From positions 227,548-291,547 of the forward strand of contig CAMERI010000001.1 of the NCBI GenBank assembly GCA_945935525.1: a DNA stretch of 64,000 nt, read 5' to 3'. The notes below the pieces were generated by a model. It was given only the letters and a program-made list of their open reading frames with translations. It was not told the origin of the DNA and searched no databases. The translations under genes and the position numbers were made by a program. Below are positions 915 through 33,428 of this stretch, piece by piece (position 1 is the stretch's first letter; each line of letters begins with the position of its first letter). Origin of the DNA: an uncultured bacterium (lineage in GTDB: Bacteria; Bacillota_I; Bacilli_A; RF39; UBA660).

Positions 915-1048
915 AATTTCACCTCTATTATTTTTCTCAAAAATGAAAATTATATGAAATTATACTTGCATTTTCACAAAAAGAGTGTATAATATAGCCC
1001 TACAAAGCAACATATTTGTTGCTAATAAAATATAGGGGGATTTTGGAA

Positions 1049-2527
1049 ATGAAGAAAGTACTACTTTCATTAGTTGCTTTTCTTATGATTTTTAATACTA
1101 TATCTGCTGAAGAAGTAGAAGTGCTAGAAAATGATAAAGAAGTAACTGAATCAATTTTAGCTATTAATGCTGAAGAAAACACTGCTAATGAAAATACTAC
1201 AAACGAAAACGAAGAAAGTAATCAAGAAGATGATTACAAATGGGCTGCTATTCAACCAGGTAGAACAAAAACAAGTGAAGGACTTATAATTGACTATTCT
1301 TATGAAGGATACTTTAGATCAGCAACTGGTTCTTACTACTTATTCACATTAGTTTATACTATACCAGAAGACTATGAAGAAGAAACACTTGTTATCAATC
1401 CAGATATTTTTGAAGTAATTGCTTGGGGACAAGATGAATCAGGAGCTCCATACATATTACCAAGTTATACTATAAAGGTTAATGTTAAAATCGTTAATAA
1501 ATCAAAGTATAACTATAATTACGATGAAAATTCTTTCGTAATATATCCAAAAAGTGCTGATGAATTAGAAGAAATGGGATTTGAAAGAATCGATAGCGAC
1601 AAAACATCATTTAATGGTGAAGATCTAACTGAATTGCAAAAATTTGCAAGAACAGATAATGCTGCATTAAAAGCATTAGGTTTAAAAAGAAAAGAAATGA
1701 GCAATGAAAATATTGATAAAGTTCTTAAAGAAAAAGGATATAATGGTATTGAAGATTTAGCTAAATATTATTTAGATTTCTTTAATGATTTTTATAAATA
1801 TGGACAAAATGGTAAAGAAAGAGTTACTAAATTATCAGACTTTACTATTACTGAAATCGCACATGGAATCTTTGGTGGATTTGTAACTGGTTATGAGGAA
1901 GAAAATGCTGAATTAATGGCATTACATTTTGATTTCTTATATAACTATGGTATGGGAGTATCTTTAGATGATGAAAAAATTAATGATAGCAATCAACAAG
2001 ATTATGCTCCAGGTGAATACATGAGAAATGAATCTAAGGGAGATACTAAAATTAAAGAAAAAGTTGGAAAACTAGAAAGTGAAACAGAAAAAGATATAGA
2101 TATGAATTTCCATTTTAGTGGACCGCTTTTAAATAATCCATATCAAGGATATAGATTAACAGGAAGTTCTCATTTATCTTATACTGCAGAAAAAGGTAAA
2201 GTTATAGCTAGATACATTGATGTTAAAGGAAATGTATTACATGAAGAAATCATTACAGTTGGTATGGTAAATAAAGCATATCAAACTGGTGCATTAGAAT
2301 TTAATGGATATGAATTAATTGAAACTGAAGGAAAAGAGACAGGATTATATCAAACTGAAGACCAAGTAGTAACATACATCTATGAATTCGTAGATGGCGA
2401 AGGTGGAGATGATACCCCTGAAATACCTAATACTGGTATTAATACTAATAATACATTAGAAATTACTACAGTTCTTAGTATGATCACTTTAGTTGGTGCA
2501 ATCGTTTTAAGAAAAAGATTCAACTAA
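1049..2527 (+). CDS. Cell-wall-anchored surface protein with a C-terminal MucBP-like domain and an IPNTG sorting signal
   Basis: Signal peptide MKKVLLSLVAFLMIFNTISA and an acidic N-region. The C-terminus carries '...VTYIYEF' (MucBP-like), then GGDDTPEIPNTG, a hydrophobic stretch and RKRFN, which is the tripartite layout of a sortase sorting signal. The likely start is the ATG at 1049, after a GGGGG RBS. Confidence 0.65.
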   Translation: MKKVLLSLVAFLMIFNTISAEEVEVLENDKEVTESILAINAEENTANENTTNENEESNQEDDYKWAAIQPGRTKTSEGLIIDYSYEGYFRSATGSYYLFTLVYTIPEDYEEETLVINPDIFEVIAWGQDESGAPYILPSYTIKVNVKIVNKSKYNYNYDENSFVIYPKSADELEEMGFERIDSDKTSFNGEDLTELQKFARTDNAALKALGLKRKEMSNENIDKVLKEKGYNGIEDLAKYYLDFFNDFYKYGQNGKERVTKLSDFTITEIAHGIFGGFVTGYEEENAELMALHFDFLYNYGMGVSLDDEKINDSNQQDYAPGEYMRNESKGDTKIKEKVGKLESETEKDIDMNFHFSGPLLNNPYQGYRLTGSSHLSYTAEKGKVIARYIDVKGNVLHEEIITVGMVNKAYQTGALEFNGYELIETEGKETGLYQTEDQVVTYIYEFVDGEGGDDTPEIPNTGINTNNTLEITTVLSMITLVGAIVLRKRFN

Positions 2528-2530
2528 CAC

Positions 2531-2566
2531 ATAAAAATTACAGTATAAATTTTATACTGTTTTTTT
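2531..2566 (+). terminator. Rho-independent terminator (hairpin acagtataaa/tttatactgt followed by a T-run)
   Basis: Perfect inverted repeat followed by T7; an identical 35-bp copy sits at 4479-4512. Confidence 0.6.
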
Positions 2567-2716
2567 ATGGAAAATATCAATTTTGATGCAAAACATCTTG
2601 AAAAAATTTAATTTTATGATATAATATGGACTCGATAAGCGATAAGGGGGTTTTGGGAACAGTTTATACTACTCTTCCCTTAACAAATCGCATATATTTT
2701 AAGGGAGGTTTTTTAA

Positions 2717-4477
2717 ATGAAGAAAGTATTACTTTCTTTAGTTGCATCTACTCTACTTTTTAATACTATCTATGCAGAAGAAATAAAAAGTACTGAAGAA
2801 GTAACTCAAAATGAAATGGTTTTAACTTCTAGTCCAGAAGATGTTAAAACTTACGTAGCTCAAATCAAAGACGTAAAATACGAAACATTTGATGAAGCAG
2901 TAACTGCAGCAGTTGATGGTGATACAATTAAATTACTTGATAATGCAACCACAAAAGGTTTAAATTTATCTAAAAATTTAACAATTGATGGTTCAAAAGA
3001 ATATACTCTTACATTTGAAGATAAAGGAATTGCTTTATGGGGAGTATCTTTAACTTTTAAAGATGTAACAGTAAATATTAAAGGAATAGGTTCAACTCCT
3101 TATACAGCAGAATGGAATTGGATGACAATCAGTGCTTCAAAAAATGCAGCCTTAAACTTAGAAAATGCAAAACTTACATTAGATGGTACAGGAACAAAAA
3201 GTAATGTTCATGCTATTTATTTTTGCAGTAATAATAAGTTAAATCTAAATAATTCTACTTTAATCATTAAAAACTATACACAAGATGCATTAGAGTGGGA
3301 TGGTGGAGATGGCGGATATAATGTTAATTTAGTTAATTCAACATATATATCTGACAACAATCGTCAAGGATTTACAGGTACATTCTATACAACTATAGAT
3401 AATAGTACTGTAGAAGTACTTAATAGTAGCGCAAGTGGATCAAATGGAACATACTACACTATTAAAAATAATAGTAAAGTAACATTTGAAAATAATAGTT
3501 CTTGGGGAATCTCAGCATGGAGAATCGACATGACAAACAACTCTACACTAAATGCTAATAACAATGGATATAGTGGTATCTGGACAAGAGTTTTAAATGT
3601 AGATAAATCATGTACTTTAATAGTAAATAAAAATGGAACAAAAGCACCTAGTTCATCAAATAATGCAGGTATTTTCTTCCAAGGAAATAAAAGTTTTACA
3701 AGTACTATAGAAGAAGGTGCTAAAGTAGAAATTAAAAATAATGCTGGTTCTGGAATCTATACTAAACAATCAGTCGGAAACTTAACAATATTATCAGGTG
3801 ACATTACTAATAATGGTACTGGTAGTGTAAATGAAAACAATGTAGGAGCAGACTTCGGTGGTGGCATTTACAATGTAGGTACATTAGTTATTGGTAACAA
3901 AGTAAATATTTATAACAATCATGCAAGTAAAGCTGCAGATGATATTTATAATAAAGCAGGATCTAAAATAGAATTCAAAGATACTAAAAAAGATTGGATC
4001 TTAGATGACTGTAATGATAAAATTGATGGTTGGTACGATGACAATGAAAAAACAAGATGGAATGCTCATGATAAAGAAAATAAATATGTAGAAGAGGTAG
4101 AAGCTAATACATATGAAACAGAATTAACAATCAAAGCAGCTCACGGAGTATATGGAAAACTAATCGTAAGATACGTAGACAATAAAGGAAACGTATTAAG
4201 CGAAGAATCAACTTATTCTGAAAAGGTTGGAACTGAATATGCCACAACAGAAAAAGAATTCGAAGACTATAGTTTAATTGACGTAAATGGTGAAACTAAA
4301 GGTAAATATATTGATGGTACTATCGTAGTAACTTATATTTATGAATTTACTAGTGGTATGGGTGGAGATGATGTACCAGCTACTGGAATTACTTCATCTA
4401 ATACTTTAGAAGTAACTACAATACTTAGTATGATTTTTCTAATTACAACTATAATAATTAGAAAAAGATTTAACTAA
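2717..4477 (+). CDS. Cell-wall-anchored beta-helix-like adhesin with a MucBP-like domain and a VPATG sorting signal
   Basis: Signal peptide, then Asn/Thr/Gly-rich repeats of the Pmp/right-handed beta-helix type ('FGGGIYNVGTLVIGN'), then MucBP-like 'VTYIYEF', then GGDDVPATG, a hydrophobic stretch and RKRFN. It is a paralogue of the preceding gene at its ends. Confidence 0.65.
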   Translation: MKKVLLSLVASTLLFNTIYAEEIKSTEEVTQNEMVLTSSPEDVKTYVAQIKDVKYETFDEAVTAAVDGDTIKLLDNATTKGLNLSKNLTIDGSKEYTLTFEDKGIALWGVSLTFKDVTVNIKGIGSTPYTAEWNWMTISASKNAALNLENAKLTLDGTGTKSNVHAIYFCSNNKLNLNNSTLIIKNYTQDALEWDGGDGGYNVNLVNSTYISDNNRQGFTGTFYTTIDNSTVEVLNSSASGSNGTYYTIKNNSKVTFENNSSWGISAWRIDMTNNSTLNANNNGYSGIWTRVLNVDKSCTLIVNKNGTKAPSSSNNAGIFFQGNKSFTSTIEEGAKVEIKNNAGSGIYTKQSVGNLTILSGDITNNGTGSVNENNVGADFGGGIYNVGTLVIGNKVNIYNNHASKAADDIYNKAGSKIEFKDTKKDWILDDCNDKIDGWYDDNEKTRWNAHDKENKYVEEVEANTYETELTIKAAHGVYGKLIVRYVDNKGNVLSEESTYSEKVGTEYATTEKEFEDYSLIDVNGETKGKYIDGTIVVTYIYEFTSGMGGDDVPATGITSSNTLEVTTILSMIFLITTIIIRKRFN

Positions 4478-4478
4478 T

Positions 4479-4512
4479 AAAATTACAGTATAAATTTTAT
4501 ACTGTTTTTTTA
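4479..4512 (+). terminator. Rho-independent terminator (second copy of the 2531-2566 hairpin)
   Basis: Identical 35-bp sequence aaaattacagtataaattttatactgtttttttat. Confidence 0.6.
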
Positions 4513-4539
4513 TATATAAAAATAGTAGTCAACAAACTA

Positions 4540-5595
4540 CTATTTTCTTTCAATCTCTTTTCCAACAATAACCAATAATTTGTCATGATATCTACCAAAT
4601 ATGCATGTTTGAAGTACCATTATTTTATCATCTTTATTTACATCAACATCTATTTTATATTTGCTTCTTCTTTTAAGTCTTTGATAATGTTTTAACCAGT
4701 CACTATCTTTCTTATAACTAAATTGCATATGTTCTTCAGCGTCTTCTTTATCAGCAATAATAACACTAAATATTTCATACTTACGAGTTTCATCATTAAC
4801 CATAAATTCAAAATACTTATGTTCTTCATAATAATCTTTATTTAAGTATTCCTCTAATACTTTAAATGGAGGATCAAACTTAGTACTATTGTGTCCATAT
4901 ACATTTATTTGTCTGCTAGTAGTATTATTTCTATAATCAATGAAAACACTACCTATTACACTTTTCTTTTTAGTAACAGCATGCTTTAAATAATAGCTAT
5001 TGTCTTTACCCTTAACTACTGGAATACTAACATCAAGTCCATCAATACTAAGTATACCCTTAATATCATCATTATCATATTTACTTCTAAGTTCATTAAT
5101 ATAATCTTTAACAGTCTTATCATCAACTATTTCAATATCTTTAGTAATAACAGTTTCTTCAAGTTCCTTGATAGTTTCATTATCTTCTTTTCTCTTAAAA
5201 TATAATAATACTAAACATACACAAACAACACCTATAAACACATATATAATAATATCAAGTATTGTTTTAGTTTTCTTATTATCTTTCTTTTCTTCTGCCT
5301 TTACTACTTCTTCTTTTTTAGGAACTTCCTTCTTAACTATCTTTTTCTTTGTCCCTGTACTTTTATTTTTATTACTAGTAGTTTTTTTAACACTAGTACT
5401 TTTATTTTTAGTACTAGTAGTTTTTCTCTTAGTATTATTTGTTTTCTTAGGAGTACTTTTTTTAGTACTTGCTTTTACATTACTACTTTTAGTACTATCC
5501 TTTTTACTTGTACTAGTTTTCTTTTTAGTACTAGTGGTTTTCTTAGTACTACTAGTCTTTCTTTTAACAGTAGTTTTCTTCTTTTCTTCATCCAT
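4540..5595 (-). CDS. srtB: Class B sortase-family transpeptidase with a roughly 110-aa Lys/Thr/Ser-rich N-terminal cytoplasmic extension
   Basis: After a TM segment (ILDIIIYVFIGVVCVCLVLLYF) the sequence reads 'YYLKHAV...VFIDYRNN...NVYGHN' and 'MVLQTCIFGR'. These parallel the second sortase at 31161-31982 ('YYLTHSF...LFLDYRNN...IIYAHGRN', 'LTLSTCYSK') and the SrtB His/TLxTC-Cys motifs. The N-terminal 110 aa are low-complexity K/T/S repeats. Confidence 0.6.
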   Translation of the reverse strand: MDEEKKKTTVKRKTSSTKKTTSTKKKTSTSKKDSTKSSNVKASTKKSTPKKTNNTKRKTTSTKNKSTSVKKTTSNKNKSTGTKKKIVKKEVPKKEEVVKAEEKKDNKKTKTILDIIIYVFIGVVCVCLVLLYFKRKEDNETIKELEETVITKDIEIVDDKTVKDYINELRSKYDNDDIKGILSIDGLDVSIPVVKGKDNSYYLKHAVTKKKSVIGSVFIDYRNNTTSRQINVYGHNSTKFDPPFKVLEEYLNKDYYEEHKYFEFMVNDETRKYEIFSVIIADKEDAEEHMQFSYKKDSDWLKHYQRLKRRSKYKIDVDVNKDDKIMVLQTCIFGRYHDKLLVIVGKEIERK

Positions 5596-5605
5596 ACTTT
5601 TTCAC

Positions 5606-8509
5606 CTAACCCAAATTAATCATATTATACACTATTAATTGATAAGTGTTATCTTTTTTTTCAACTTTAGCATTAATTTTATATACATAATTCTTTTTAA
5701 CTTCACCAATCTTCTTATATGCATCAGGAAAAACAACACCTTCAACACTTCTATATTCATCACTTAACTTAACAAAAGACATCTTATCTCCATTCTTAGT
5801 CTTAATAGTTTTAACACTTTCTACATATAAAACACAAGATATAACTTTATCAAAATATTTAATAAAATCTTTAAGAGTTATTGAGTTACTTCTATCAAAC
5901 TTAGTAACCGGATGAAATGATAAATAAAATCCATAATTAATTATTTCATTATCTATTATTTCCTTATCTGTATAGTCTTCCATATCTTCAAGTATAGGTT
6001 TTTCATCAATAACCATATTTAAGTCTTTACACAAAGTTACATAATTGAGTACTTCATCAAAACTTTTTATCAAACTTTTTTTATTAATATTAAATACATC
6101 AAAAGCTCCACACTCTATTAAAGCAATAACCACTCTTTTATTAACGCTTTTACCATAACACCTAATCATAAAGTCATAAAAATCTTTAAATAATCCTTTA
6201 CATCTTTCATTTTCAATCTCTTCACTTACCGTAGATGCTATACTTTTAATTATAGTAAATGGTATTACTAGCTTTTTATCATTAATAATAAACTCTTTGC
6301 AAGAACTATTTATATTAATTGGTAAAAATTCTATTCCTAGTAACTTGCTTTCATCTATATATTCTTTAATGCTTTCACTACTTTTATTCATATTAAGTAA
6401 ATTTTTCATGAAGTATAAAGTATAATTTATTTTTAAATATGCCATTTGAAATGCCACTACTGAATATACTACTGAGTGTGATTTATTAAATCCATAAGAA
6501 GAGAATTTAATAATTAACTCGTATAACTCTTCTCCAACCTCTCTAGTGTGTCCATGAGAAACAACTCCATTAATAAATTTATCTTTATTTGATGCTATAA
6601 CACTCTCTTTCTTCTTAGACATAGCTCTTCTTATTATATCTGCTTCAGCATAACTATATCCACCAATACTTCTAAGAATCTCTAATACTTGTTCTTGATA
6701 TATTATAATTCCATAAGTACTCTTAAGTATTGGTTCAAGTTCAGGTATTAAGTATGTTACTTTCTCAAGACCTTTTTTTCTTTTAATATAAGTGGGTATC
6801 ATCTCACGAGGACCTGGTCTATATAAAGCTATCGCATCTACTAAAGTGTGAAATGAATCAACCTCTAATTCTTTTAAGAATGCTTTCATACCACTACTTT
6901 CAAATTGAAATACACCAGTAGTATAAGCTTTACTAAATAAATAAAGAGTTCTCTTATCATTTAAATCTATATTATTTATATCTATATTTATTCCACTACT
7001 TCTTATATCATCTATTATATTAGATATTGTATTTAAGTTTTTAATTGATAAAAAGTCCATTTTTAATAAACCAAGACTTTCTATATATTCCATAGAATAA
7101 CCAGTTAAAACAGTATCCCCTACTTTATATAAAGGCATAATACTATCAAGTTCTATATCACTTATAACAACACCAGCTGCATGCATACTGGTATTCTTCT
7201 TTAAGCCACATAACTTATCACATACTTTTACTAAATACATAGCATCTTTATTTCTTCTAACTATATTATTAAATTCAAAATTATTTTTAAGTTCATCAAA
7301 TGTCTTTTCATCTTTTATAGTTCTACAGATATTATCAACTAATATTTGGTTTAATTCCATTACTCTAGATACATCTCTTATAACTTGTTTAGGAAGCAAT
7401 GTATTAAATGATATTATTCTAGCCGTATTCTTGTGTCCATATTTATCACTAACGTATTTAATTACTTCTTCACGTTTCAAACTATCAAAATCTATATCTA
7501 TATCAGGCATAGTAACTCTATCAGGATTTAAGAATCTTTCAAATATTAAGTTATATTTTAATGGGTCTACATTTATAATTCCAAGACTATAGTTTACTAA
7601 AGATGCAGCACCACTTCCCCTTCCAGGACCAACTAAAATATTATTTCTTTTTGCAAATAATACAAAATCATACACTATTAAAAAGTAATCTACAAAGTTC
7701 ATCTTTTCAATAACAGAAAGTTCATACATAAGTCTGTTTTTATATACTTCTGGTACATCACCATTAAGTCTCTTCTCTAATCCCTTTTTAGCAAGAGCAA
7801 ATAAGAACTTTTTTGAGTCTTCTCTATACACTGGTATATGCAACCTAACAGGAGGCATTTCAATATTAATAAGATTTGCAAAATCAAAAGTACTCTTAGT
7901 ATATTCTTTTCCTATATTATTTTTAAAACCACTCTCATATACATTAATCTTTTCTTTAAATACTTTTCCCTCATCTATATATCTAATATATTTAAAATAT
8001 TCTATATCATCAGGTTCAAAATATCTAATCAAATCCATATATACTATATTCTTTGTAAGTTTTAATGCTTCCTCTTTAGTTTTTTCGTTATGAAATTTTA
8101 AATAACAATCTTTAAAATATTTAGATACTACCTCATAATGTCTTATGCTTGTTACTACTATTAAATTAGATATATATTTTTCTACATCTTCAAATGTTAT
8201 AACACCATCTATATTCTTTTTAGAAACTAATTTGAATAACGAAACTAAACCATCATAGTTTCTAGCATATAAAACGACATATGCATCTTCTATAATAAGT
8301 TCACATCCAACTATAGGTTTAATACCACATAAATTACATTTAGTTATAAATTCCATAGTACCAAACATAGATGAATCTGTTATTCCAAGTGCTTTAACAT
8401 CTCTACTTTCAGCATATAAAAGCAAATCATCTATTTTAATTAGACTATTCATTAAATCATATTCAGTTTTAATATTAAGTGGTATATAATTCATAACATT
8501 TCCTTTCAT
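5606..8509 (-). CDS. dnaE: DNA polymerase III alpha subunit (DnaE-type)
   Basis: N-terminal PHP domain, the 'GRGSGAASLVNYSLGI' polymerase core motif, a C-terminal OB fold; 967 aa. Confidence 0.85.
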   Translation of the reverse strand: MKGNVMNYIPLNIKTEYDLMNSLIKIDDLLLYAESRDVKALGITDSSMFGTMEFITKCNLCGIKPIVGCELIIEDAYVVLYARNYDGLVSLFKLVSKKNIDGVITFEDVEKYISNLIVVTSIRHYEVVSKYFKDCYLKFHNEKTKEEALKLTKNIVYMDLIRYFEPDDIEYFKYIRYIDEGKVFKEKINVYESGFKNNIGKEYTKSTFDFANLINIEMPPVRLHIPVYREDSKKFLFALAKKGLEKRLNGDVPEVYKNRLMYELSVIEKMNFVDYFLIVYDFVLFAKRNNILVGPGRGSGAASLVNYSLGIINVDPLKYNLIFERFLNPDRVTMPDIDIDFDSLKREEVIKYVSDKYGHKNTARIISFNTLLPKQVIRDVSRVMELNQILVDNICRTIKDEKTFDELKNNFEFNNIVRRNKDAMYLVKVCDKLCGLKKNTSMHAAGVVISDIELDSIMPLYKVGDTVLTGYSMEYIESLGLLKMDFLSIKNLNTISNIIDDIRSSGINIDINNIDLNDKRTLYLFSKAYTTGVFQFESSGMKAFLKELEVDSFHTLVDAIALYRPGPREMIPTYIKRKKGLEKVTYLIPELEPILKSTYGIIIYQEQVLEILRSIGGYSYAEADIIRRAMSKKKESVIASNKDKFINGVVSHGHTREVGEELYELIIKFSSYGFNKSHSVVYSVVAFQMAYLKINYTLYFMKNLLNMNKSSESIKEYIDESKLLGIEFLPININSSCKEFIINDKKLVIPFTIIKSIASTVSEEIENERCKGLFKDFYDFMIRCYGKSVNKRVVIALIECGAFDVFNINKKSLIKSFDEVLNYVTLCKDLNMVIDEKPILEDMEDYTDKEIIDNEIINYGFYLSFHPVTKFDRSNSITLKDFIKYFDKVISCVLYVESVKTIKTKNGDKMSFVKLSDEYRSVEGVVFPDAYKKIGEVKKNYVYKINAKVEKKDNTYQLIVYNMINLG

Positions 8510-9063
8510 ATATATTCTATCATAATTAAAAGGTTCTTACGAACCTTTTTTCTCATTTGTTAAATTAATTAGTTTAAGTGTAAAATAATATATTTTTTAA
8601 ATTTACTTAAAATTGAATTTTATATATCAAAACATATTTGATAATTAAATTTTTGTATAAAGAAAAATGTAATTATCACCATGAAAAACTATCTCAGAAT
8701 TAAATTTTGCCTATTTGAATTGCTTTTTTATATATGATACTCTACATGCCGAAGTACCTGGGGTTACGTATCGCCAAAGCATGTTTCTCTCTTCAGGGGG
8801 CGCGAACATTTGTTCTAGAATTATGCTAAATTTGCTAAACATAAAGCAAAGAAAATTATTACCTAATTGTAATGCTAAAATCCTTATTTTATCGTATATA
8901 AAGACCTATTTTGTACCCTTCAGTTTGTGTTATTTTTTATTCATAGAATTGTTCGCTTTTTGCTTACTATGATTATTTAGGTACACATAATTAAGTCCTA
9001 AACTCTTGACTTTTATCTATTAATAAGTAACTAATACAATACCTTTTGAAAGGAGGTATTTTG

Positions 9064-9324
9064 ATGAAAGCAAAAGAAATATTAGAACTTATTGCATCAC
9101 CCTGGTGCTATAATCAAGACATTATGAAAATTGCTAATCTATCAGCTTCTACTGCTAGTAAGGTTAAACGAACTATTGAGATGGATTTTAGAAAAAAGAA
9201 TCCTACTAAGTTTATGCCTTCACATTGTGTACCAACAAAAGAAGTAATTAAATACTTTGATCTGGATGTAGAGTTTTTAAAGAGTATAGCTAATATCAAA
9301 ACTAATGAGGATACTAATGAATAA
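9064..9324 (+). CDS. Small HTH protein, possibly Xis/excisionase-like
   Basis: AGGAGG RBS. The pattern 'IMKIANLSASTASKVKRTI...VPTKEVIKYF' resembles the Tn916 Xis-like HTH. It is the first gene of an accessory block. Confidence 0.3.
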   Translation: MKAKEILELIASPWCYNQDIMKIANLSASTASKVKRTIEMDFRKKNPTKFMPSHCVPTKEVIKYFDLDVEFLKSIANIKTNEDTNE

Positions 9325-9643
9325 ATATGTTATTGCACATGTTCATGATGAATTTAAATTATACCTAGCTGATTTCTTTACTAAACCTTTAGGTTCTGGA
9401 GCTATACTAACATGTGATATAGATATCTTAAAAGCTAAAATATATAATTCATATAAAATGGCTAAAAGTGATTTATATTTCATTGGTGATCCTAGTCTTA
9501 GAGTATTACCTATTTGTCCTATATATGATAAAGTTTATGAAACCCATCCAGCTACATCTAGAAAAGATAACAAAACTAAAATATGTCCTTCATGCGGTAC
9601 ACGTGAAGCATTAGAAATATTCCAAACTAAAAGAGCCGATTAA
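9317..9643 (+). CDS. Hypothetical protein with a C-terminal Cys pair (CP...CPSCG, zinc-ribbon-like)
   Basis: ORF with a start context; there is no recognisable family. Confidence 0.3.
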   Translation: MNKYVIAHVHDEFKLYLADFFTKPLGSGAILTCDIDILKAKIYNSYKMAKSDLYFIGDPSLRVLPICPIYDKVYETHPATSRKDNKTKICPSCGTREALEIFQTKRAD

Positions 9644-9656
9644 TTCGACTCTGTTT

Positions 9657-11246
9657 TTATTTTGATACAATTATTGACTTCTTTGATAGTATTGTTGCTT
9701 TATATTTAGTACCAACCTTTTCGACTTTTGATATACAAGCATCCTTCATTTTTACTACTGTGTTGCTCATCTCTATATCTTCATCAAACATTGTTACTTT
9801 TCCTAACCCTAATTCCTCTCCACTTAATACTAGTCCTTCATTAACGGAATCATCAACTATTAAATCAAATGACATTTCGTTATTATATGTTTTTTGTTTC
9901 TTTCTTAAATAGTTGTACACAATATCTATAGAATTCATATTTCTGTAAAAATTCTCATTGTTAACTTTAAATTTATAGCCTAATTGGTTTTCTATAAATA
10001 TAATCTTATTAAAGTAATCTATTGTATCGTTAATGTTCTTAACATCTTTTTTATTATAGATATACTTACCATTACAATATGAATCAATTAAAGGTTTATC
10101 TGTGCCTTCTATTTTTACAATTATTTTTGTTTTTTTATCTTGCCCTAACATATGCCATTTATATAATTGCAATTGTTCTTTTGCATCATCTTTATATTTA
10201 TCCTTAACCAAATATGTATAATGAAATCCTAAATAATTACCTTTTTTAGTTAATTTTAATGTTAAAGAATATGGCTCATCAAATCTAGAGTTAGATACCA
10301 CACTTTCGTTTTCTGTAAATTTTAAAAGATGCATATCAATATTATTAAAACACAATTGTATAAAATCATTTTTCATAATTAATGTGAATTTTCTAACAGG
10401 TAACTCGTCAGATGGTTTTGGTAGTATATATAACATCGACCCTTTTTTGTTTTTTTGAAATGGTGATGGTATAGTTCCAAAATAATCTTTAGCATCTAAC
10501 ATTTTTCCTATAAGTACAGCTTTATTAGTCACATTAGCTTCTCCTGATAACCAATTAATATCTAGCATTCTGTTTCTTTCTTCTTCAGTCATGCCTGAAA
10601 CATCAAATGTTATTTTAGTATTAAAAGGATACTTTTCGTAAGCTTCTTTATTTTTTGCTACTATATGTTCATATGTATCATCATTATGAGAATATTTAAC
10701 TTCATAATAAGGTTTTAATTCATCTGGCAATTTTGATGATTGAATTTTCTCAATTGCTGAAAATGTTTTATTAACAGAATCTTTTATCATCTTATCTGCA
10801 TCTTCTATAGATGGATCAGCGAAATCTACTACTGTCTCTTTAAGTATAGATAACTCATTTTTTGTACTAATAACTTCTTGTTCTATAAATCCTGATGCTT
10901 TGTTAATAATACTAATAAATATATCAGCTATTTCACTTGCCCAATTATTTGAACTTATTATGTGACCTTCCTTAATAAATTCATTTATTAACTCTTGTGA
11001 TCTGTCATCATAATTATCATCTAGGTAATCAATAAAAAAATCTTTATTCATAATAGGTTTTATTTCTTTCGCTAATTTATCAAACTTAGTACCGCCAGTA
11101 CAATATCTACCTATCGAATCATCGTTAATCTCTTCTAAATACTTTATCTTAGTATTAGTAATAGCTTCTGATAATTCTTTTACTATTTCCGAACTACTAC
11201 AATTTAATATCTTTTTAAATATCTTAGAAAATATTGAAAAATCCAT
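9657..11246 (-). CDS. Hypothetical 530-aa cytosolic protein (accessory island)
   Basis: Long ORF. The start MDFSIFSK at 11246 has an AGGAGG RBS, and the upstream in-frame extension has no RBS. There is no family I can name. Confidence 0.5.
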   Translation of the reverse strand: MDFSIFSKIFKKILNCSSSEIVKELSEAITNTKIKYLEEINDDSIGRYCTGGTKFDKLAKEIKPIMNKDFFIDYLDDNYDDRSQELINEFIKEGHIISSNNWASEIADIFISIINKASGFIEQEVISTKNELSILKETVVDFADPSIEDADKMIKDSVNKTFSAIEKIQSSKLPDELKPYYEVKYSHNDDTYEHIVAKNKEAYEKYPFNTKITFDVSGMTEEERNRMLDINWLSGEANVTNKAVLIGKMLDAKDYFGTIPSPFQKNKKGSMLYILPKPSDELPVRKFTLIMKNDFIQLCFNNIDMHLLKFTENESVVSNSRFDEPYSLTLKLTKKGNYLGFHYTYLVKDKYKDDAKEQLQLYKWHMLGQDKKTKIIVKIEGTDKPLIDSYCNGKYIYNKKDVKNINDTIDYFNKIIFIENQLGYKFKVNNENFYRNMNSIDIVYNYLRKKQKTYNNEMSFDLIVDDSVNEGLVLSGEELGLGKVTMFDEDIEMSNTVVKMKDACISKVEKVGTKYKATILSKKSIIVSK

Positions 11247-11426
11247 ATAAAACCTCCTTTCGGACTCCTTCCAGTCCCAACAAATCCTTCCCAATCCTGA
11301 TAAAAGTTTCAATTTGTGTGATAATGAAACCAGTCAAGAGGAAGTGCACTCTTCTTGATAATATATTATAACAGATTTTTCCTATATTCTGGCCAAATAT
11401 GGAGAAAATTTAGGAGGAATTATCAA

Positions 11427-12113
11427 ATGACTAATTTTGAAGATAAAAAACCTAGAAAAGGCTGTAAAGATGTATTTAATGCATATATGGTTAATGAAGC
11501 AATATTTACTGGTGAATTCGATATACCCGTATGTTTAACTGACAAAATTGAAATACCTGAAAGAGTTATTGCTTATGATTTAACTAAATCAAGTACCGAT
11601 TATGAAGCATATGTTCATTTTTATATTGATGACCAAAAGTTTGATGGTCCACAAGGTATATGGAATAATCCAAAGAAAGCTTTAGATCGACTTCGAAAAT
11701 TTAAAGGTGTTATTACACCAGACTTCTCAACTAATATAGATTTTCCTGTATCATTAAAAATATTTAATACATATAAAATGAGAGCATTTGGTTGTTGGCT
11801 TAGATCTAATGGAATTAATGTAATTAATAATGTTAGATGGTCTGAACCTAATTCTTATAATTATTGTTTTGATGGTATACCTAAAAACAGCATTATTTCA
11901 ATTGGTACTATTGGTTGTATAAAAGATAGCTCATATTGGGATTTATATCAAAAAGGTTTAGATGAAATGATTGAAAGATTAGAACCTAAAATAATTCTTG
12001 TATATGGAAGATCACCAGACAAGTTCTTTAAAAAATACAAAGATAAAGGAATAATTATTCATCAATATGAAAGTCAAACAAGTCTAGCATTTAGAAAGAA
12101 GGAATTAGAATGA
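11427..12113 (+). CDS. DUF4417 domain protein
   Basis: Motifs 'KGCKDVFNAYMV...EAYVHFYIDD...IWNNPKK...FKGVITPDFS...IFNTYKMRAFGCWLRSNGINVI...CFDGIPKNSIISIGTIGCIK...ILVYG' match my recollection of the DUF4417 family, which is common in Firmicute mobile elements and phages. RBS TAGGAGG. Confidence 0.5.
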   Translation: MTNFEDKKPRKGCKDVFNAYMVNEAIFTGEFDIPVCLTDKIEIPERVIAYDLTKSSTDYEAYVHFYIDDQKFDGPQGIWNNPKKALDRLRKFKGVITPDFSTNIDFPVSLKIFNTYKMRAFGCWLRSNGINVINNVRWSEPNSYNYCFDGIPKNSIISIGTIGCIKDSSYWDLYQKGLDEMIERLEPKIILVYGRSPDKFFKKYKDKGIIIHQYESQTSLAFRKKELE

Positions 12114-12511
12114 AATCATCATCTGGACTTTATAAAAACACCTCTGGAACTAAAGCACTAAAGAAAAATAATAAAGAAAATATCGTTAAATCAATTAATA
12201 TAAATAAAGTTAACAAAATTCCTGAAAAAGTATCTCAGATAGATCATATATTTAGAGAAGATGAAGGTCACTTAACTTTTAGTGAAAAAAATGTTAAAAT
12301 TATATCGAAGTTGATTAATAACGATAAAAACATCTCACTAGAAAAAGATAAAAACGGAAATACTTGGTATTCCAAAACTAATGAAGATGGTTGCCAAATT
12401 TGGGGAAAAGTTCATAATAGAACTTTAAGTAATGGTGGAATAAATAAAACACCTAGACCATTAGACAAAGATACAGGATATGATAAAAATCCATTTAAAA
12501 AGAAGGAATAA
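12110..12511 (+). CDS. Small basic protein, toxin/nuclease-like (His-rich 'IDHIFREDEGH...WGKVHNRT')
   Basis: 4-bp ATGA overlap with the DUF4417 gene. Size and the His/Gly-His motifs recall HNH/GH-E-like or RNase toxin tips. No family is assigned. Confidence 0.35.
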   Translation: MKSSSGLYKNTSGTKALKKNNKENIVKSININKVNKIPEKVSQIDHIFREDEGHLTFSEKNVKIISKLINNDKNISLEKDKNGNTWYSKTNEDGCQIWGKVHNRTLSNGGINKTPRPLDKDTGYDKNPFKKKE

Positions 12512-12516
12512 TATTT

Positions 12517-12837
12517 ATGAAACTCATAGATTTAAAAAAATATTATTTTCATGATAGTTCTATTTTAGAAATAGTTAAAACTAATGATGTTATTAAATTA
12601 AAAATAGACTTTTGTTTATTTATGCAAGATAACTACATTGAAGGAACTAAAGAAAATTGCATATTAGAACTAACTTTCAATGGAGCATCAACAAATATTG
12701 AAAATATTGAAGTTAATACAATCATAGATACAAAAATAGATGAAAACAAAATTGTATTTAATTTAAACATAGATAAAAATGATGATTATATTCAATTAGA
12801 AATACAAGCCTCATCTGTAGAATTATCTATAAATTAG
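12517..12837 (+). CDS. Small acidic protein (candidate immunity/antitoxin)
   Basis: 106 aa and acidic; it follows 5 bp after the toxin-like gene. Confidence 0.3.
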   Translation: MKLIDLKKYYFHDSSILEIVKTNDVIKLKIDFCLFMQDNYIEGTKENCILELTFNGASTNIENIEVNTIIDTKIDENKIVFNLNIDKNDDYIQLEIQASSVELSIN

Positions 12838-12851
12838 AAAGGAGACTAAAT

Positions 12852-13184
12852 ATGTTAAATACTTATACATCATTTAAATTATTATATTACGCATTAGATT
12901 CAATTTTTGATGAAACTAAAGAAGAAGAATTAGGTGAATTTTGTAGCAATATGAACCCTTTTATATTTGCTGATGAAGGTTCTGCTGACCCTGCTATATA
13001 TTCAAATTACAAAAAACAATTTGAAGAAAGATTCAACAAAGAATGTTCAATATCTGAAGCTTATGAATTTGCAAAAGAATATTTAAATAAAGAAGTTGAT
13101 ATTTATGCAAAACATGCTGTTGATGCATTTAGTAGAGTTTCATTAGAAGATTGGACAAATGCCGCTAATAATATGAACGATTAA
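12852..13184 (+). CDS. Small acidic protein (candidate immunity/antitoxin)
   Basis: 110 aa and acidic, with its own RBS (AGGAGA); last gene of the block. Confidence 0.3.
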   Translation: MLNTYTSFKLLYYALDSIFDETKEEELGEFCSNMNPFIFADEGSADPAIYSNYKKQFEERFNKECSISEAYEFAKEYLNKEVDIYAKHAVDAFSRVSLEDWTNAANNMND

Positions 13185-13489
13185 CATTGAGAACTATATG
13201 GTTTGGTTGATAAAATACGTACACTTCTTCTTGAAGAGTATTAAAACACTTACAATTCCTTTATTTAAAAGGTTTTAAAAGGTATTATTCTACTCTACAT
13301 ACAAATTACATACGAATAATTCTTGGCATCATTCTTAAAATATTACAATTTTTGAGTACCTAAACAAAGGGCTTCAAACCCTTATAATTCCTAGAAAAGT
13401 CACGTTTTTCGCTTACATTATTTGAGCCTAATCTGTACCTAAACTCAACTTTTTCAAATTTCACAAACCCTTATTTTATCGCACAAAAA

Positions 13490-13530
13490 ATGAAGATGCC
13501 TTTGACAGCATCTTCTTCAGGGGGGTTAAT
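13490..13530 (-). terminator. Rho-independent terminator on the minus strand (gaagatgc/gcatcttc hairpin plus T-run)
   Basis: Minus strand reads gaagatgctgtcaaaggcatcttc followed by attttttgtg. Confidence 0.45.
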
Positions 13531-13544
13531 GGAGGCGATGTTAT

Positions 13545-13634
13545 ATGAGTAAAAAAGATTATTTAATAAGTTCTTTACTTGTTATCATTTTCTTATTACT
13601 TTTTATAATATTTTTATTAATTTTCATAAATTAA
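13545..13634 (+). CDS. 29-aa hydrophobic peptide MSKKDYLISSLLVIIFLLLFIIFLLIFIN (candidate type I toxin-like small membrane peptide)
   Basis: GGAGG RBS 8 nt upstream of the ATG; charged N-terminus followed by one TM helix; lies between two hairpin terminators. Confidence 0.3.
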   Translation: MSKKDYLISSLLVIIFLLLFIIFLLIFIN

Positions 13635-13645
13635 TAAAAATACCT

Positions 13646-13682
13646 AACTCACTTTGTAGTTAGGTATTACAACAACATGATA
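13646..13682 (-). terminator. Rho-independent terminator for the pilin-like gene (acctaact/agttaggt hairpin plus T-run on the minus strand)
   Basis: Inverted repeat with an 8-nt loop, followed on the minus strand by ttttattaattta. Confidence 0.55.
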
Positions 13683-13755
13683 CCTGGCCTACAAAGGGTC
13701 AGGTGCTTCACTAAAATTAATTTATCATATTTTAATATATATTGTAAATAATTTA

Positions 13756-14166
13756 TTATTTTTCATTATAAAATTTACATTCATAATTATCTAAATTACC
13801 TTTTTCAATATTATTATCAGATAAATCTTTTATAGTTTGATTATCTTCTAAAGAAACAAGGTACTCTCCATCAGATACTTTAATACTTACTACTTGTCCA
13901 TCATCACTTAAATAAACGCAATATTGCAGTTTACTATCAAAACCATCTAATTTTGTATCATCTTTTGAACTTACTACCTTTGTATTATTACCACTTCTAA
14001 ATCTATTTTCAGCTTCACTATAAACCTTTTTAGTTTCATTAATAACATATTCTTTTTTAGAATTCTTTACAACATTATAAACGTTAGGAAGTGCTATTAT
14101 AACTATAATTGTCAATATGATAATAATTGTTAAAAACTCTATTAAAGTAAAACCAGTTTTATTCAT
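13756..14166 (-). CDS. Prepilin-type N-terminal cleavage/methylation domain protein (type IV pilin/ComGC-like)
   Basis: N-terminus MNKTGFTLIEFLTIIIILTIIVI carries the class III signal G/FTLIE; 136 aa. Confidence 0.65.
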   Translation of the reverse strand: MNKTGFTLIEFLTIIIILTIIVIIALPNVYNVVKNSKKEYVINETKKVYSEAENRFRSGNNTKVVSSKDDTKLDGFDSKLQYCVYLSDDGQVVSIKVSDGEYLVSLEDNQTIKDLSDNNIEKGNLDNYECKFYNEK

Positions 14167-14202
14167 CCCTTCTCCTTAAATAAAATACCAAGAAATTAAT
14201 CC

Positions 14203-14661
14203 TTAGTATTTACTATCTACGTCATTAAAATCAACTTTATCCATTTCTTCAATAACTTCTAATTGATTTTCTATTATTTGTTTTAATCTTCGTTTTAAAA
14301 TATTAGTATTTCTTTTTAGTTGATCAGCGTGATTTTGAGCTTTTTCTGCTTTTAATAAAGCATCATTTATTATTCTACTTGCATTATGTCTTGCTTCAGT
14401 AACTAAAGACTCTGCCTCTCTTCTTGCACTACTCTTTATTTGGTCACCTGCTGCTTCGGCAGTATATATTGCTCTATTCATAGTATCTTCTATTCTTTGA
14501 TAGTAAGAAATTTGTTCAACTAATTTTTTATTTTCATCTTCTGTTTTCTGACTCTTCTTAAGTAAAGCTTCATAATTATTTATTATTTCGTCTAAACATT
14601 TTTGAACTTGATACTTATCATAGCCACGGAAAACAGTATCGAACTTTTTCATAAGCTCCAC
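14203..14661 (-). CDS. divIVA: DivIVA-domain cell division protein
   Basis: 'KFDTVFRGYDKYQVQKCLDEI' is the DivIVA N-terminal domain, followed by coiled coil; it is immediately downstream of sepF. Confidence 0.7.
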   Translation of the reverse strand: MELMKKFDTVFRGYDKYQVQKCLDEIINNYEALLKKSQKTEDENKKLVEQISYYQRIEDTMNRAIYTAEAAGDQIKSSARREAESLVTEARHNASRIINDALLKAEKAQNHADQLKRNTNILKRRLKQIIENQLEVIEEMDKVDFNDVDSKY

Positions 14662-14684
14662 CTCTAATATTTTAAAACTTTATA

Positions 14685-15071
14685 TTACCATTCTCCTGTA
14701 TCTGCTTTTTTAGTTTTTTTAGTATCGTCTTCTGTTATATTTCCTTCAATCTCAAATCCTTTAGGTGCACAAATAACAATACCAGGACCTAACTTTTGCA
14801 TAGTTCCTTCAATCGCATAAATTATACCATTAAGAAAATCCATAATTCTCTTAGATACATCTGAAGTGACTCTTTTAAAGTTAACAACAACTTGATTTTT
14901 AGCCTTTAAATAATCAGCTATTTGTTGTGCTTCAGAAAATGCTCTTGGTTCTACTAAAATAGTTTTATTTCTATATTCTTCTTTTTTATTTTTAGTTATT
15001 TCTTTTGTTTCATATTCTTCTACGCCTTCATCATCATCTTCAGGCTTAAATATGTTATTAATAAATCCCAT
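14685..15071 (-). CDS. sepF: Cell division protein SepF
   Basis: C-terminal SepF core 'VEPRAFSEAQQIADYLKAKNQVVVNF...IVICAPKGFEI'. Confidence 0.7.
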   Translation of the reverse strand: MGFINNIFKPEDDDEGVEEYETKEITKNKKEEYRNKTILVEPRAFSEAQQIADYLKAKNQVVVNFKRVTSDVSKRIMDFLNGIIYAIEGTMQKLGPGIVICAPKGFEIEGNITEDDTKKTKKADTGEW

Positions 15072-33376: not shown

Positions 33377-33428
33377 CTATTCATTAATAATATGAATAAG
33401 TGATTATATTTATGTATTTAGTTTTTCT

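What the first reader, a model, noticed from the sequence alone, without database searches (positions are those of the whole stretch)
4540..5595. Sortase B paralogue with an unusual 110-aa Lys/Thr/Ser-rich cytoplasmic tail, encoded by repetitive DNA
Sortases normally have only a short cytoplasmic stub before the TM anchor. Here the gene encodes about 110 residues of 'KKTTSTKKKTSTSKK'-type low-complexity sequence before the TM. The underlying DNA at about 5340-5590 is made of degenerate 'tttagtactagtagttttt' units. These units could change length by slipped-strand mispairing. The gene is convergent with two MucBP adhesins whose sorting motifs are IPNTG/VPATG rather than LPXTG, so it is plausibly their dedicated sortase.
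Basis: partly seen in the sequence, partly recalled or inferred. Interest (0 to 1): 0.55.

Follow-up and report, generated by a model that had tools for sequence, protein, structure and literature searches.

The report
Tailed class-B sortase lacking catalytic arginine
A gut bacterium's cell-surface protein-anchoring enzyme (sortase) carries an unusual 111-residue positively charged tail inside the cell, whose length differs between strains, and it belongs to a large unstudied sortase group that lacks the arginine thought to be essential in all sortases.

Summary
ORF 4540..5595(-) encodes a 351-aa protein with three parts. The first 111 residues are a Lys/Thr/Ser-rich tail (K 39, T 24, S 15; net charge about +31). 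One transmembrane helix follows, then a domain with a confident class B sortase fold. The start codon is sound, so the tail is not an annotation artefact. The tail DNA consists of degenerate 18/21-nt repeats. Related strains differ by in-frame blocks of 12 to 81 nt. Two relatives carry near-perfect 81-nt and 57-nt tandem arrays. This is length polymorphism, not on/off phase variation.

The order dnaE, then sortase, then convergent MucBP genes with D[VI][PV]xTG signals recurs in six related species-level loci. This supports a dedicated sortase. A second, canonical-scoring SrtB lies at 31161..31982, so "paralogue" is fair.

The triad check failed in part. His235 and Cys331 are present, but Leu340 occupies the arginine position. 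The protein belongs to a large "LQTC" clade, known only from uncultured Bacilli. In this clade Tyr, Phe or Leu replaces the arginine and Gln sits at Cys-2.

The tail's function is inferred, not shown. Electrostatic membrane localisation is the likeliest role. I rate this a new variant of a known kind, of moderate interest.

The parts
4540..5595 (-). Sortase gene (351 aa plus stop): cytoplasmic tail, TM anchor and class-B-fold catalytic domain.
   Evidence: The ORF is. TIGR03064 gives E 1.4e-37 at 129.3 bits, below the 153.75 cutoff. 120 listed homologues (69-100% identical) keep the reading frame, of 165 hits.
5263..5595 (-). Tail-coding region, residues 1-111. It is Lys/Thr/Ser-rich with net charge about +31 and is predicted to be cytoplasmic and disordered.
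   Evidence: Composition is. Among the aligned relatives the tail is 40-96% identical to the window's, against 82-100% for the rest of the protein, while its composition is kept. Length classes run from 90 to 160 aa.
5357..5580 (.). Degenerate in-frame tandem repeats (periods 18 and 21 nt, plus a 39-nt pair) underlying the tail.
   Evidence: TRF results are and the repeat family. The 19-mer is enriched 4 against 0.21 expected. The 39-nt unit is deleted in L008; 12 + 54 nt are added in L011; L001 has an 81-nt unit x3.2 at 97%.
5602..5607 (-). Shine-Dalgarno AGGTGA, 6 nt upstream of the ATG and overlapping the dnaE stop codon.
   Evidence: Read directly from the sequence. It is conserved in L008, L011 and L001.
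5197..5262 (-). Signal-anchor transmembrane helix, residues 112-133.
   Evidence: The hydropathy maximum is 3.06. The segment is invariant or nearly so in relatives.
4543..5196 (-). Extracellular linker and catalytic domain, residues 134-351. His235 is at 4891..4893, Gln329-Thr330-Cys331 at 4603..4611, and Lys339/Leu340 at 4576..4581.
   Evidence: The AF2 model of residues 135-351 has pLDDT 95.5 and pTM 0.92. Foldseek's 19 best PDB matches are all class B sortases, with target-normalised TM-scores up to 0.92. The Arg column is occupied by Leu340.
4477..4545 (.). Two AT-rich hairpins in the 62-nt gap between the convergent sortase and MucBP genes. They are probably terminators for both directions.
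   Evidence: RNA fold gives -19.9 kcal/mol with z = -4.66. The consensus terminator scan found none because it requires at least 3 G-C pairs.
2717..4477 (+). MucBP surface protein (586 aa) with a signal peptide and the C-terminal signal DDVPATG + TM + RKRFN. Probable substrate.
   Evidence: Pfam MucBP E 2.6e-12. The C-terminus is shown. Orthologues sit next to the sortase in L001-L006 and L008-L010.
1016..2527 (+). MucBP surface protein (503 aa from the first start; the likely start is the MKKVLL at codon 11) with PEIPNTG + TM + RKRFN. Probable substrate.
   Evidence: Pfam MucBP E 3.6e-13. The C-terminus is shown.
5606..8509 (-). dnaE (DNA polymerase III alpha), ending 10 nt before the sortase start. 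Probably co-transcribed with it.
   Evidence: Pfam and NCBIfam hits are. The same order occurs in L001-L005 and L007-L011. Co-transcription is an inference.

Best explanation
The gene encodes a type II membrane sortase of class B fold. An N-terminal 111-residue polycationic, Ser/Thr-rich, disordered tail stays in the cytoplasm. One helix crosses the membrane, and the catalytic domain faces the cell wall.

The enzyme most likely cleaves the D[VI][PV]xT|G signals of the MucBP adhesins encoded convergently next to it and links them to peptidoglycan. The organism does have a wall-building machinery.

The enzyme belongs to a large, uncharacterised 'LQTC' clade of uncultured gut Bacilli in which the active site is remodelled. 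His and Cys are kept. Gln is invariant at Cys-2. His replaces the Tyr of the beta6/beta7 helix. The catalytic Arg at the start of beta8 is replaced by Tyr, Phe or Leu (Leu340 here, preceded by Lys339).

The tail is built from in-frame repeats that duplicate and delete by replication slippage or unequal recombination. Strains therefore differ in tail length while charge and composition are kept.

The most likely role of the tail is electrostatic. It would hold or concentrate the enzyme at anionic membrane regions where secretion and lipid II are found. Possibly the charge is tuned by Ser/Thr phosphorylation.

Shown here: the gene, topology logic, fold, residue states, synteny and length polymorphism. 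Inferred: enzymatic activity, substrate assignment and the tail's function.
For: Gene and start.

Fold: AF2 pLDDT 95.5; the 19 best Foldseek PDB matches are all class B sortases, with rmsd 1.6 A to the C. perfringens SrtB.

His235 and Cys331 align with the catalytic residues of solved SrtBs.

Wall machinery in the window: FtsW/RodA, MraY and a PBP with a PASTA domain.

Synteny: dnaE, sortase, then 1-3 convergent MucBP genes with [VI][PV][ENA]T[GA] + TM + RKRFN in L001-L006 and L008-L010. The same pairing holds for a 52%-identical tailed relative, L015, with DIPATG.

Other LQTC sortases also sit beside PPKTG, PPKTS or NPTTS proteins.

Clade properties: Gln at Cys-2 in 129 of 141 nearest representatives. 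In those 129 the Arg column holds Y 68, F 29, L 20 and R 2. The 12 non-Gln sequences have R in 11 (Fisher p = 1.3e-13; the sequences are not phylogenetically independent). In 115 further clusters, all 115 have QTC with Y or F. hhalign places Y on R. The B. anthracis R243 aligns with Tyr (PMC11987632).

Tail: it is conserved in charge and composition (K+R 34-49, D+E 5-11) but not in sequence across the clade. Similar basic Ser/Thr-rich tails arose in separate lineages (P0121, P0122, P0134, P0142, P0192). It is unique among the window's proteins. Six tail-length classes occur among proteins whose core is at least 95% identical. Fresh tandem arrays of 81 nt x3.2 (97%) and 57 nt x6.9 (96%) occur in relatives.

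Precedents: the cytoplasmic extension of SrtE1 is needed in vivo (PMC5148588). From my own memory, not read here: positively charged cytoplasmic residues direct focal localisation of E. faecalis sortases (Kline et al. 2009, J Bacteriol 191:3237).

A Hanks-type kinase and an FHA protein are encoded in the window.
Against: - No activity, localisation or binding data exist for any member of this clade.
- The protein scores below the curated TIGR03064 cutoff (129.3 against 153.75) and gave no Pfam Sortase hit at E <= 0.01.
- The missing Arg could mean low or altered activity.
- Tail sequence and length evolve quickly, and two relatives have tails of only about 52-55 aa (P0118, P0120). This also fits weak or no constraint.
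- One relative's locus (L007) and the P0122 lineage have no adjacent substrate.
- A second SrtB in the window could share or take the substrates.
- Nothing links the kinase to the tail.
- Model coordinates could not be inspected, so it is unresolved whether Lys339 reaches the active site.
Confidence: 0.55

Rival explanations
1. The tail has no specific function. It is a neutral by-product of repeat slippage in a 26% G+C genome. It is tolerated because a basic cytoplasmic N-terminus obeys the positive-inside rule.
For: Among the aligned relatives the tail is only 40-96% identical to the window's where the rest of the protein is 82-100%. Lengths range from about 52 to 160 aa. The codons are the A/T-rich AAA, ACT and AGT. 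Recent tandem duplications occur in relatives. No family or domain match was found.
Against: Apart from evident fragments, every clade member keeps a basic tail of at least about 50 aa with nearly constant charge density, across 7 GTDB species representatives. Comparable tails arose independently in several lineages, yet only 8 of 149 nearest clusters have one. No other protein in 64 kb shows such a segment. The roughly 30 juxtamembrane residues and the MDEEKKK start are conserved.
Confidence: 0.28
2. The tail is a histone-H1-like nucleic-acid-binding arm with S/TPKK-type motifs. It would tie the membrane enzyme, which is co-transcribed with dnaE, to the AT-rich nucleoid or to RNA.
For: A TPKK motif occurs in the window tail, and its unit is duplicated in L011 and L001. 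The P0121 tail consists of seven 19-aa repeats, each with SPKK. The gene lies 10 nt downstream of dnaE in all clade loci.
Against: There is no homology to any DNA-binding family. P0093 and P0098 show no S/TPKK motif in the alignment. There is no functional logic linking sortase chemistry to DNA. The dnaE adjacency is absent in the P0121, P0122 and P0134 lineages.
Confidence: 0.08
3. Because the catalytic Arg is missing, the protein is not a transpeptidase. It would be an inactive pseudo-sortase, or a hydrolase or scaffold.
For: Leu340 sits at the Arg column. Reviews state that Arg is present in all sortases and indispensable (PMC8225981, PMC13257024). The score is below the TIGR03064 cutoff.
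Against: The catalytic domain is under strong purifying selection (82-100% identity; His235, Gln329, Thr330 and Cys331 invariant). The loss of Arg is clade-wide and coupled to invariant Gln at Cys-2, which looks like remodelling and not decay. Neighbouring proteins keep intact sorting signals across species.
Confidence: 0.1
4. The repeats form a contingency locus that switches the sortase on and off by slipped-strand mispairing.
For: The DNA is repetitive and length differs between strains.
Against: All observed indels are multiples of 3 (12, 39, 54 and 81 nt). The units in this window match only 68-78%. All 120 listed homologues keep the reading frame.
Confidence: 0.03
5. The N-terminal extension is an annotation artefact caused by a wrong start codon.
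For: None was found.
Against: A strong Shine-Dalgarno sequence lies 6 nt upstream of the ATG. There is no alternative start before the middle of the TM helix. The start and frame are conserved in relatives despite many indels.
Confidence: 0.01

Closest known systems
Clostridial class B sortases (C. perfringens SrtB, PDB 5b23; C. difficile SrtB, PDB 5gyj/4ux7)
   Same: These are the best sequence and structure matches: E 1.7e-24, rmsd 1.6 A, target-normalised TM up to 0.92. Both have an N-terminal signal anchor, the YGHN histidine and a xTC cysteine motif. Substrates carry (S/P)PxTG-like signals. By my recollection C. difficile also has a Val-containing variant, NVQTG, to compare with IVETG here.
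   Different: Identity is only about 30%. Gln replaces Ser/Ile at Cys-2. His303 replaces Tyr. Leu340 sits where R217 lies in C. difficile (6kyd is the R217A mutant). The 111-aa cytoplasmic tail is absent from these enzymes. The score is below the TIGR03064 cutoff.
Streptomyces coelicolor SrtE1 (class E) cytoplasmic extension
   Same: It has an N-terminal cytoplasmic extension of about 100-200 aa before the TM. The extension varies in sequence and length between species and is required for function in vivo. The authors call such extensions absent in nearly all other sortases (PMC5148588).
   Different: It belongs to a different sortase class and phylum. The SrtE1 extension has distinct acidic and basic patches and is not a Lys/Ser/Thr repeat. 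No sequence similarity is evident, and no tandem-repeat DNA has been reported.
Positively charged cytoplasmic segments that localise E. faecalis sortases, and the anionic-lipid ExPortal of S. pyogenes
   Same: Basic cytoplasmic residues next to a sortase TM segment are linked to focal membrane localisation. [quoted passage not shown] The Kline et al. 2009 work is cited from memory.
   Different: Those segments are a few residues long and, in SrtC, C-terminal. Here the segment is an N-terminal 111-aa polycation. Localisation was not tested here.
Histone H1-type / bacterial lysine-rich low-complexity tails (S/TPKK motifs)
   Same: The composition is similar (about 35% Lys, abundant Ser/Thr/Pro-Lys-Lys units). 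The construction is tandem-repeat and the length evolves rapidly.
   Different: This tail is attached to a membrane enzyme and not to a DNA-binding fold. No homology and no evidence of DNA binding were found.

Membership tests
Class B sortase (SrtB, MEROPS C60B, TIGR03064) | Sortase beta-barrel with the class-B-specific N-terminal helix and long helical beta6/beta7 loop | tested here: met
   AF2 pLDDT 95.5 with helices at model residues 28-39 and 163-175. The 19 best Foldseek PDB matches are all class B; other classes have query-normalised TM of 0.50 or less.
Class B sortase (SrtB, MEROPS C60B, TIGR03064) | Score at or above the curated cutoff of the TIGR03064 equivalog model | tested here: not met
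   129.3 bits against a cutoff of 153.75. The second sortase in the window passes with 167.5 bits.
Class B sortase (SrtB, MEROPS C60B, TIGR03064) | Catalytic His in the (Y)GH(N) motif and catalytic Cys in the TLxTC motif | tested here: met
   His235 (VYGHN) and Cys331 (VLQTC) align with those of solved SrtBs. Both are invariant in relatives.
Class B sortase (SrtB, MEROPS C60B, TIGR03064) | Catalytic Arg at the start of strand beta8 | tested here: not met
   Leu340 occupies the column and Lys339 precedes it. Profile-profile alignment puts the clade's Tyr on Arg. Whether Lys339 can substitute could not be judged without model coordinates.
Class B sortase (SrtB, MEROPS C60B, TIGR03064) | N-terminal signal-anchor TM helix with the catalytic domain outside | tested here: met
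   A single hydrophobic helix spans residues 112-133, with a +31 tail on the N side. The topology is inferred from the positive-inside rule.
Class B sortase (SrtB, MEROPS C60B, TIGR03064) | Genetic linkage to substrates with a non-LPXTG, (N/S/P)PxT(G/N)-type sorting signal | tested here: met
   Adjacent MucBP proteins carry IPNTG, VPATG, VPETG, VPNTG or IVETG in the window and in L001-L006, L008-L010 and L015.
Class B sortase (SrtB, MEROPS C60B, TIGR03064) | Transpeptidase activity on the sorting signal | not testable with these tools
   This needs a peptide cleavage or ligation assay.
Phase-variable contingency locus (slipped-strand mispairing) | Near-perfect short repeats whose copy-number change shifts the reading frame or promoter spacing | tested here: not met
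   Repeat units match only 68-78%. All indels between strains are multiples of 3, and no frameshifted homologue appears among the 120 listed.
Phase-variable contingency locus (slipped-strand mispairing) | Repeat-number polymorphism between closely related strains | tested here: met
   Six tail-length classes occur among proteins with at least 95% identical cores. Block indels fall at repeat boundaries.
Sortases with a cytoplasmic extension (SrtE1-like architecture) | At least 100 aa N-terminal to the TM helix, conserved as a feature across relatives | tested here: met
   111 aa here, and about 52-160 aa in clade members apart from evident fragments. This is an architectural resemblance only; homology to SrtE1 was not tested.

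The most novel reading that the evidence does not exclude
LQTC sortases would be a distinct, widespread class of wall-anchoring enzymes in uncultured reduced-genome gut Bacilli that catalyse transpeptidation without the supposedly universal catalytic arginine. They would use Gln at Cys-2 and a His on the beta6/beta7 helix, or a neighbouring Lys, to position the substrate or stabilise the oxyanion. In some lineages, a repeat-built polycationic tail that may be phosphorylated would add cytoplasmic control of where or when adhesins are anchored.
Probability: 0.25. Interest if true: 0.75.

Novelty: new variant of a known kind. Interest (0 to 1): 0.52.

Why it matters
Sortases are drug targets and protein-ligation tools, and their mechanism is taught as a universal His-Cys-Arg triad. 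A large natural clade without the Arg, still genetically coupled to intact sorting signals, would give a direct test of what the Arg does. It could also provide enzymes with new specificities, such as [VI][PV]xTG.

The tail is a rare case of a long cytoplasmic module on a sortase. The only studied precedent is class E SrtE1. It evolves by repeat gain and loss, so it offers a handle on how sortases are positioned in the membrane.

The carriers are abundant but uncultured human-gut Bacilli with genomes of about 1.4 Mb. Their MucBP adhesins and the anchoring machinery for them probably matter for colonisation.

Tried and rejected
- AF2 on the 18-sequence clade alignment gave an unusable model (pLDDT 38.8). 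A 127-sequence alignment solved this. Coordinates are not exposed, so the active-site geometry, including whether Lys339 or Gln329 reaches Cys331, could not be examined.
- Two profile searches meant to name cultured carriers of LQTC sortases returned almost only unnamed metagenome proteins. A cluster look-up also gave no names. The taxonomic range therefore stays at 'uncultured Bacilli/Mollicutes MAGs'.
- Pfam, at E up to 10, found nothing for the tail alone or for the P0121 tail.
- The promoter scan around the dnaE-sortase junction was not above chance (14 found, 15.4 expected). The terminator scan found none because it requires G-C-rich stems. Folding showed two significant AT-rich hairpins instead.
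- Literature searches for a QTC sortase motif, or for sortases lacking Arg, found nothing relevant. Kang et al. 2020 and Kline et al. 2009 are not held.
- Rejected: the wrong-start artefact, on/off phase variation, and a genome-wide low-complexity habit.
- PADLOC found nothing in the neighbouring island.
Full report
**1. Observation**

The ORF at 4540..5595 on the minus strand is real and encodes 351 aa.
- Residues 1-111 contain 39 Lys, 24 Thr and 15 Ser. K+R is 41 and D+E is 10. Entropy is 2.79 bits for the tail against 3.94 for the rest.
- The only strongly hydrophobic stretch is residues 112-133.
- The ATG at 5595 is preceded by AGGTGA at a 6-nt spacing, and this overlaps the stop codon of dnaE (5606..8509).
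- No ATG, GTG or TTG occurs in frame before codon 119, which lies inside the helix. The extension therefore cannot be removed by re-annotation.
- The DNA under the tail is repetitive but degenerate. TRF reports periods of 18 and 21 nt with 68-78% matches.
- Among the window's ORFs of at least 100 aa, this is the only basic, Ser/Thr-rich 40-residue segment. It is not a general habit of this 26% G+C genome.

**2. What the protein is**

- NCBIfam's class B sortase model matches residues 111-331 (E 1.4e-37), but at 129.3 bits, below the curated 153.75 cutoff. Pfam gave no hit at E <= 0.01.
- The closest solved proteins are SrtB of C. perfringens and C. difficile (E 1e-24 to 1e-22).
- An AlphaFold model from a shallow alignment failed (pLDDT 38.8). 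With 127 diverse relatives, the model of residues 135-351 reached pLDDT 95.5 and pTM 0.92.
- Its 19 best PDB matches are all class B sortases, with rmsd 1.6 A to 5b23. Other sortase classes follow with query-normalised TM of 0.50 or less.
- The fold and the His235 (YGHN) and Cys331 (LQTC) residues are therefore those of a class B sortase.

**3. The triad is not complete**

The C-terminus reads QTC-IFGRYHDK-LLVIVGKEIERK.
- Anchored on the conserved VxxKEI end of strand beta8, Leu340 falls on the catalytic Arg of C. perfringens SrtB and on C. difficile R217. PDB 6kyd is the R217A mutant, which fixes that position. Lys339 is one residue earlier.
- An exhaustive HMMER scan of 1.84 billion representatives found 11,677 relatives.
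- Of the 141 nearest usable clusters, 129 have Gln at Cys-2 ('LQTC'). Their Arg column holds Tyr 68, Phe 29, Leu 20, Lys 4 and Arg 2.
- The 12 sequences without Gln have Arg in 11. Fisher p = 1.3e-13, with the caveat of shared ancestry.
- Of the 129 LQTC sequences, 77 have no Lys or Arg at that column or the one before. Twenty-seven have none in the whole beta7/beta8 loop.
- A further 115 clusters from a profile search are all QTC with Tyr or Phe.
- Profile-profile alignment of LQTC against canonical SrtB (probability 100%) places Tyr on Arg without a gap.
- B. anthracis R243, whose guanidinium contacts the P3/P2 carbonyls (PMC11987632), aligns with Tyr in P0169.
- The clade also has His at position 303 (87%) where canonical enzymes have Tyr or Phe.
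- Reviews state that all sortases carry His-Cys-Arg (PMC8225981, PMC13257024). I found no paper in the held library pairing sortases with a QTC motif.
- I could not inspect model coordinates. What replaces the Arg, and whether Lys339 does so in this lineage, remains open.

**4. Evidence that it still works as a sortase**

- The TM and catalytic part is 82-100% identical across relatives, and His235, Gln329, Thr330 and Cys331 are invariant.
- The window encodes FtsW/RodA, MraY and a PBP with a PASTA domain, so there is a wall to anchor to.
- The two convergent MucBP genes end in PEIPNTG and DDVPATG, each followed by a hydrophobic segment and RKRFN.
- The order dnaE, sortase, then 1-3 convergent MucBP genes recurs in L001-L006 (GTDB species representatives) and L008-L010. 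Signals there are VPETG, VPNTG, IVETG and VPNTA.
- A tailed relative only 52% identical (P0121, L015) has the same partner, with DIPATG.
- Tail-less LQTC sortases sit beside proteins ending in PPKTG or PPKTS (L016) and NPTTS (L018).
- These signals fit the (N/S/P)PxTG preference of class B enzymes (PMC13257024), so the departure from LPXTG is not in itself unusual.
- L007 and the P0122 lineage lack adjacent substrates.

**5. Paralogue**

- A second sortase at 31161..31982(+) passes the TIGR03064 cutoff with 167.5 bits.
- It is only 24% identical to the first.
- It lies divergently next to a 1278-aa protein ending in NPQTG.
- A division of labour, [VI]PxTG for the tailed enzyme and NPQTG for the other, is plausible but untested.
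- This second enzyme has Lys at the Arg column, where its nearest representative has Arg.

**6. The tail in evolution**

- Among the 120 listed homologues, all from uncultured human-gut 'Bacilli/Mollicutes' MAGs with contigs up to 1.4 Mb, the tail is kept. Its length ranges from about 52 to 160 aa.
- Charge density is stable (K+R 34-49, D+E 5-11). In the 17 aligned relatives, tail identity is 40-96% while the rest is 82-100%.
- Six length classes (97-115 aa) occur among proteins whose core is at least 95% identical.
- DNA alignment of near-identical strains shows clean in-frame blocks. L008 has a 39-nt unit deleted. L011 has 12 + 54 nt added. L001 has further copies, with an 81-nt unit x3.2 at 97%.
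- The P0121 lineage has a 57-nt unit x6.9 at 96%, encoding KDSPKKSTKTTSGTKKIEx.
- Between the window and L008, the catalytic part is 100% identical in DNA over 750 nt. The tail region has about 20 substitutions plus the deletion.
- Repeat-mediated length change is therefore real and ongoing in the clade. It is always in frame, and the window's own units are old and degenerate. It is not an on/off switch.
- Long basic tails are rare: 8 of 149 nearest clusters have at least 30 aa before the TM. They recur in separate lineages with different sequences, including an Arg/Ser-rich one, P0134.

**7. Mechanism of the tail (inference)**

The +31 charge on the N side of a single helix fixes the tail in the cytoplasm by the positive-inside rule. 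It has almost no hydrophobic residues and no family match, so it is most likely disordered.

The best-supported idea is electrostatic. The tail would bind anionic lipid head groups and so retain or concentrate the enzyme where secretion and lipid II occur. Three points support this by analogy:
- The S. pyogenes ExPortal is rich in anionic lipid (PMC3781834).
- Charge-dependent focal localisation has been reported for E. faecalis sortases (Kline et al. 2009, cited from memory).
- S. coelicolor SrtE1 needs its cytoplasmic extension in vivo, a feature its authors call absent from nearly all other sortases (PMC5148588).

The high Ser/Thr content, together with a Hanks kinase and an FHA protein in the window, makes charge tuning by phosphorylation conceivable, but nothing tests it. 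The main rival is that the tail is a tolerated slippage product. A DNA-binding, H1-like role (S/TPKK motifs, dnaE linkage) is a minor rival.

**8. Verdict**

The item is a new variant of a known kind in two respects. It is a class-B-fold sortase with a long repeat-built polycationic cytoplasmic tail. It is also a member of a large, apparently undescribed LQTC clade that lacks the canonical catalytic arginine. The second point is the more consequential and deserves biochemical testing.

Noticed in passing
window 31161..31982 (+) and 26968..30804 (-): There is a second class B sortase (273 aa, TIGR03064 167.5 bits, above the cutoff). It lies divergently next to a 1278-aa surface protein ending in NPQTG + TM + RRKQTN. 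This sortase has Lys where the catalytic Arg should be (LSTC...SDK-MVVHAK). Its nearest representative, P0226 (42% identical), has Arg.
   Followed up: partly
window 1016..4477; loci L001, L003, L008-L010: The number of MucBP adhesin genes beside the sortase differs between related genomes. The near-identical strain L008-L010 has one, the window two, and the more distant L001 and L003 three. Some copies carry IVETG (Val in place of Pro) or VPNTA signals.
   Followed up: partly
window about 8510..14200: A roughly 5.5-kb island lies between dnaE and divIVA. It holds a DUF4417 protein (11355..12113), a 551-aa protein with no family hit (9657..11312) and several small ORFs. In related loci this interval is a short gap (L002) or holds other genes (L001). 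No PADLOC defence match was found.
   Followed up: partly
window 24260..25831 (-): A large serine recombinase (Resolvase, Recombinase and Zn-ribbon domains) lies 1.1 kb from the NPQTG protein and second-sortase pair. That pair might therefore sit on a mobile element.
   Followed up: no
window 52863..57388 (-): A Hanks-type Ser/Thr kinase (691 aa) lies directly downstream of an ABC transporter with an N-terminal FHA domain (816 aa). This could be a phospho-signalling pair.
   Followed up: no
window 4540..8600 versus L008: Divergence between two otherwise near-identical strains is patchy. There are 0 differences over the 750-nt catalytic part of the sortase. There are about 20 substitutions in the tail-coding 200 nt, 17 in dnaE 6450..6599, and clusters in the MucBP gene. 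This suggests recombination patches.
   Followed up: partly
locus L013 8001..8987 (P0122): A 51%-identical LQTC sortase with an 88-aa basic tail sits in a cell-envelope cluster (LtaS-like sulfatase, glycosyltransferases, GtrA, CDP-alcohol phosphatidyltransferase) with no adjacent substrate. All 15 listed members of its 53-member cluster are 328 aa, so its tail length is stable.
   Followed up: no
window 14203..15071 (-), 32378..34421 (-), 39986..42178 (-): Genes for DivIVA, SepF, FtsW/RodA, MraY and a PASTA-containing PBP are present. This reduced-genome 'Mollicutes/Bacilli' MAG lineage therefore makes peptidoglycan.
   Followed up: no
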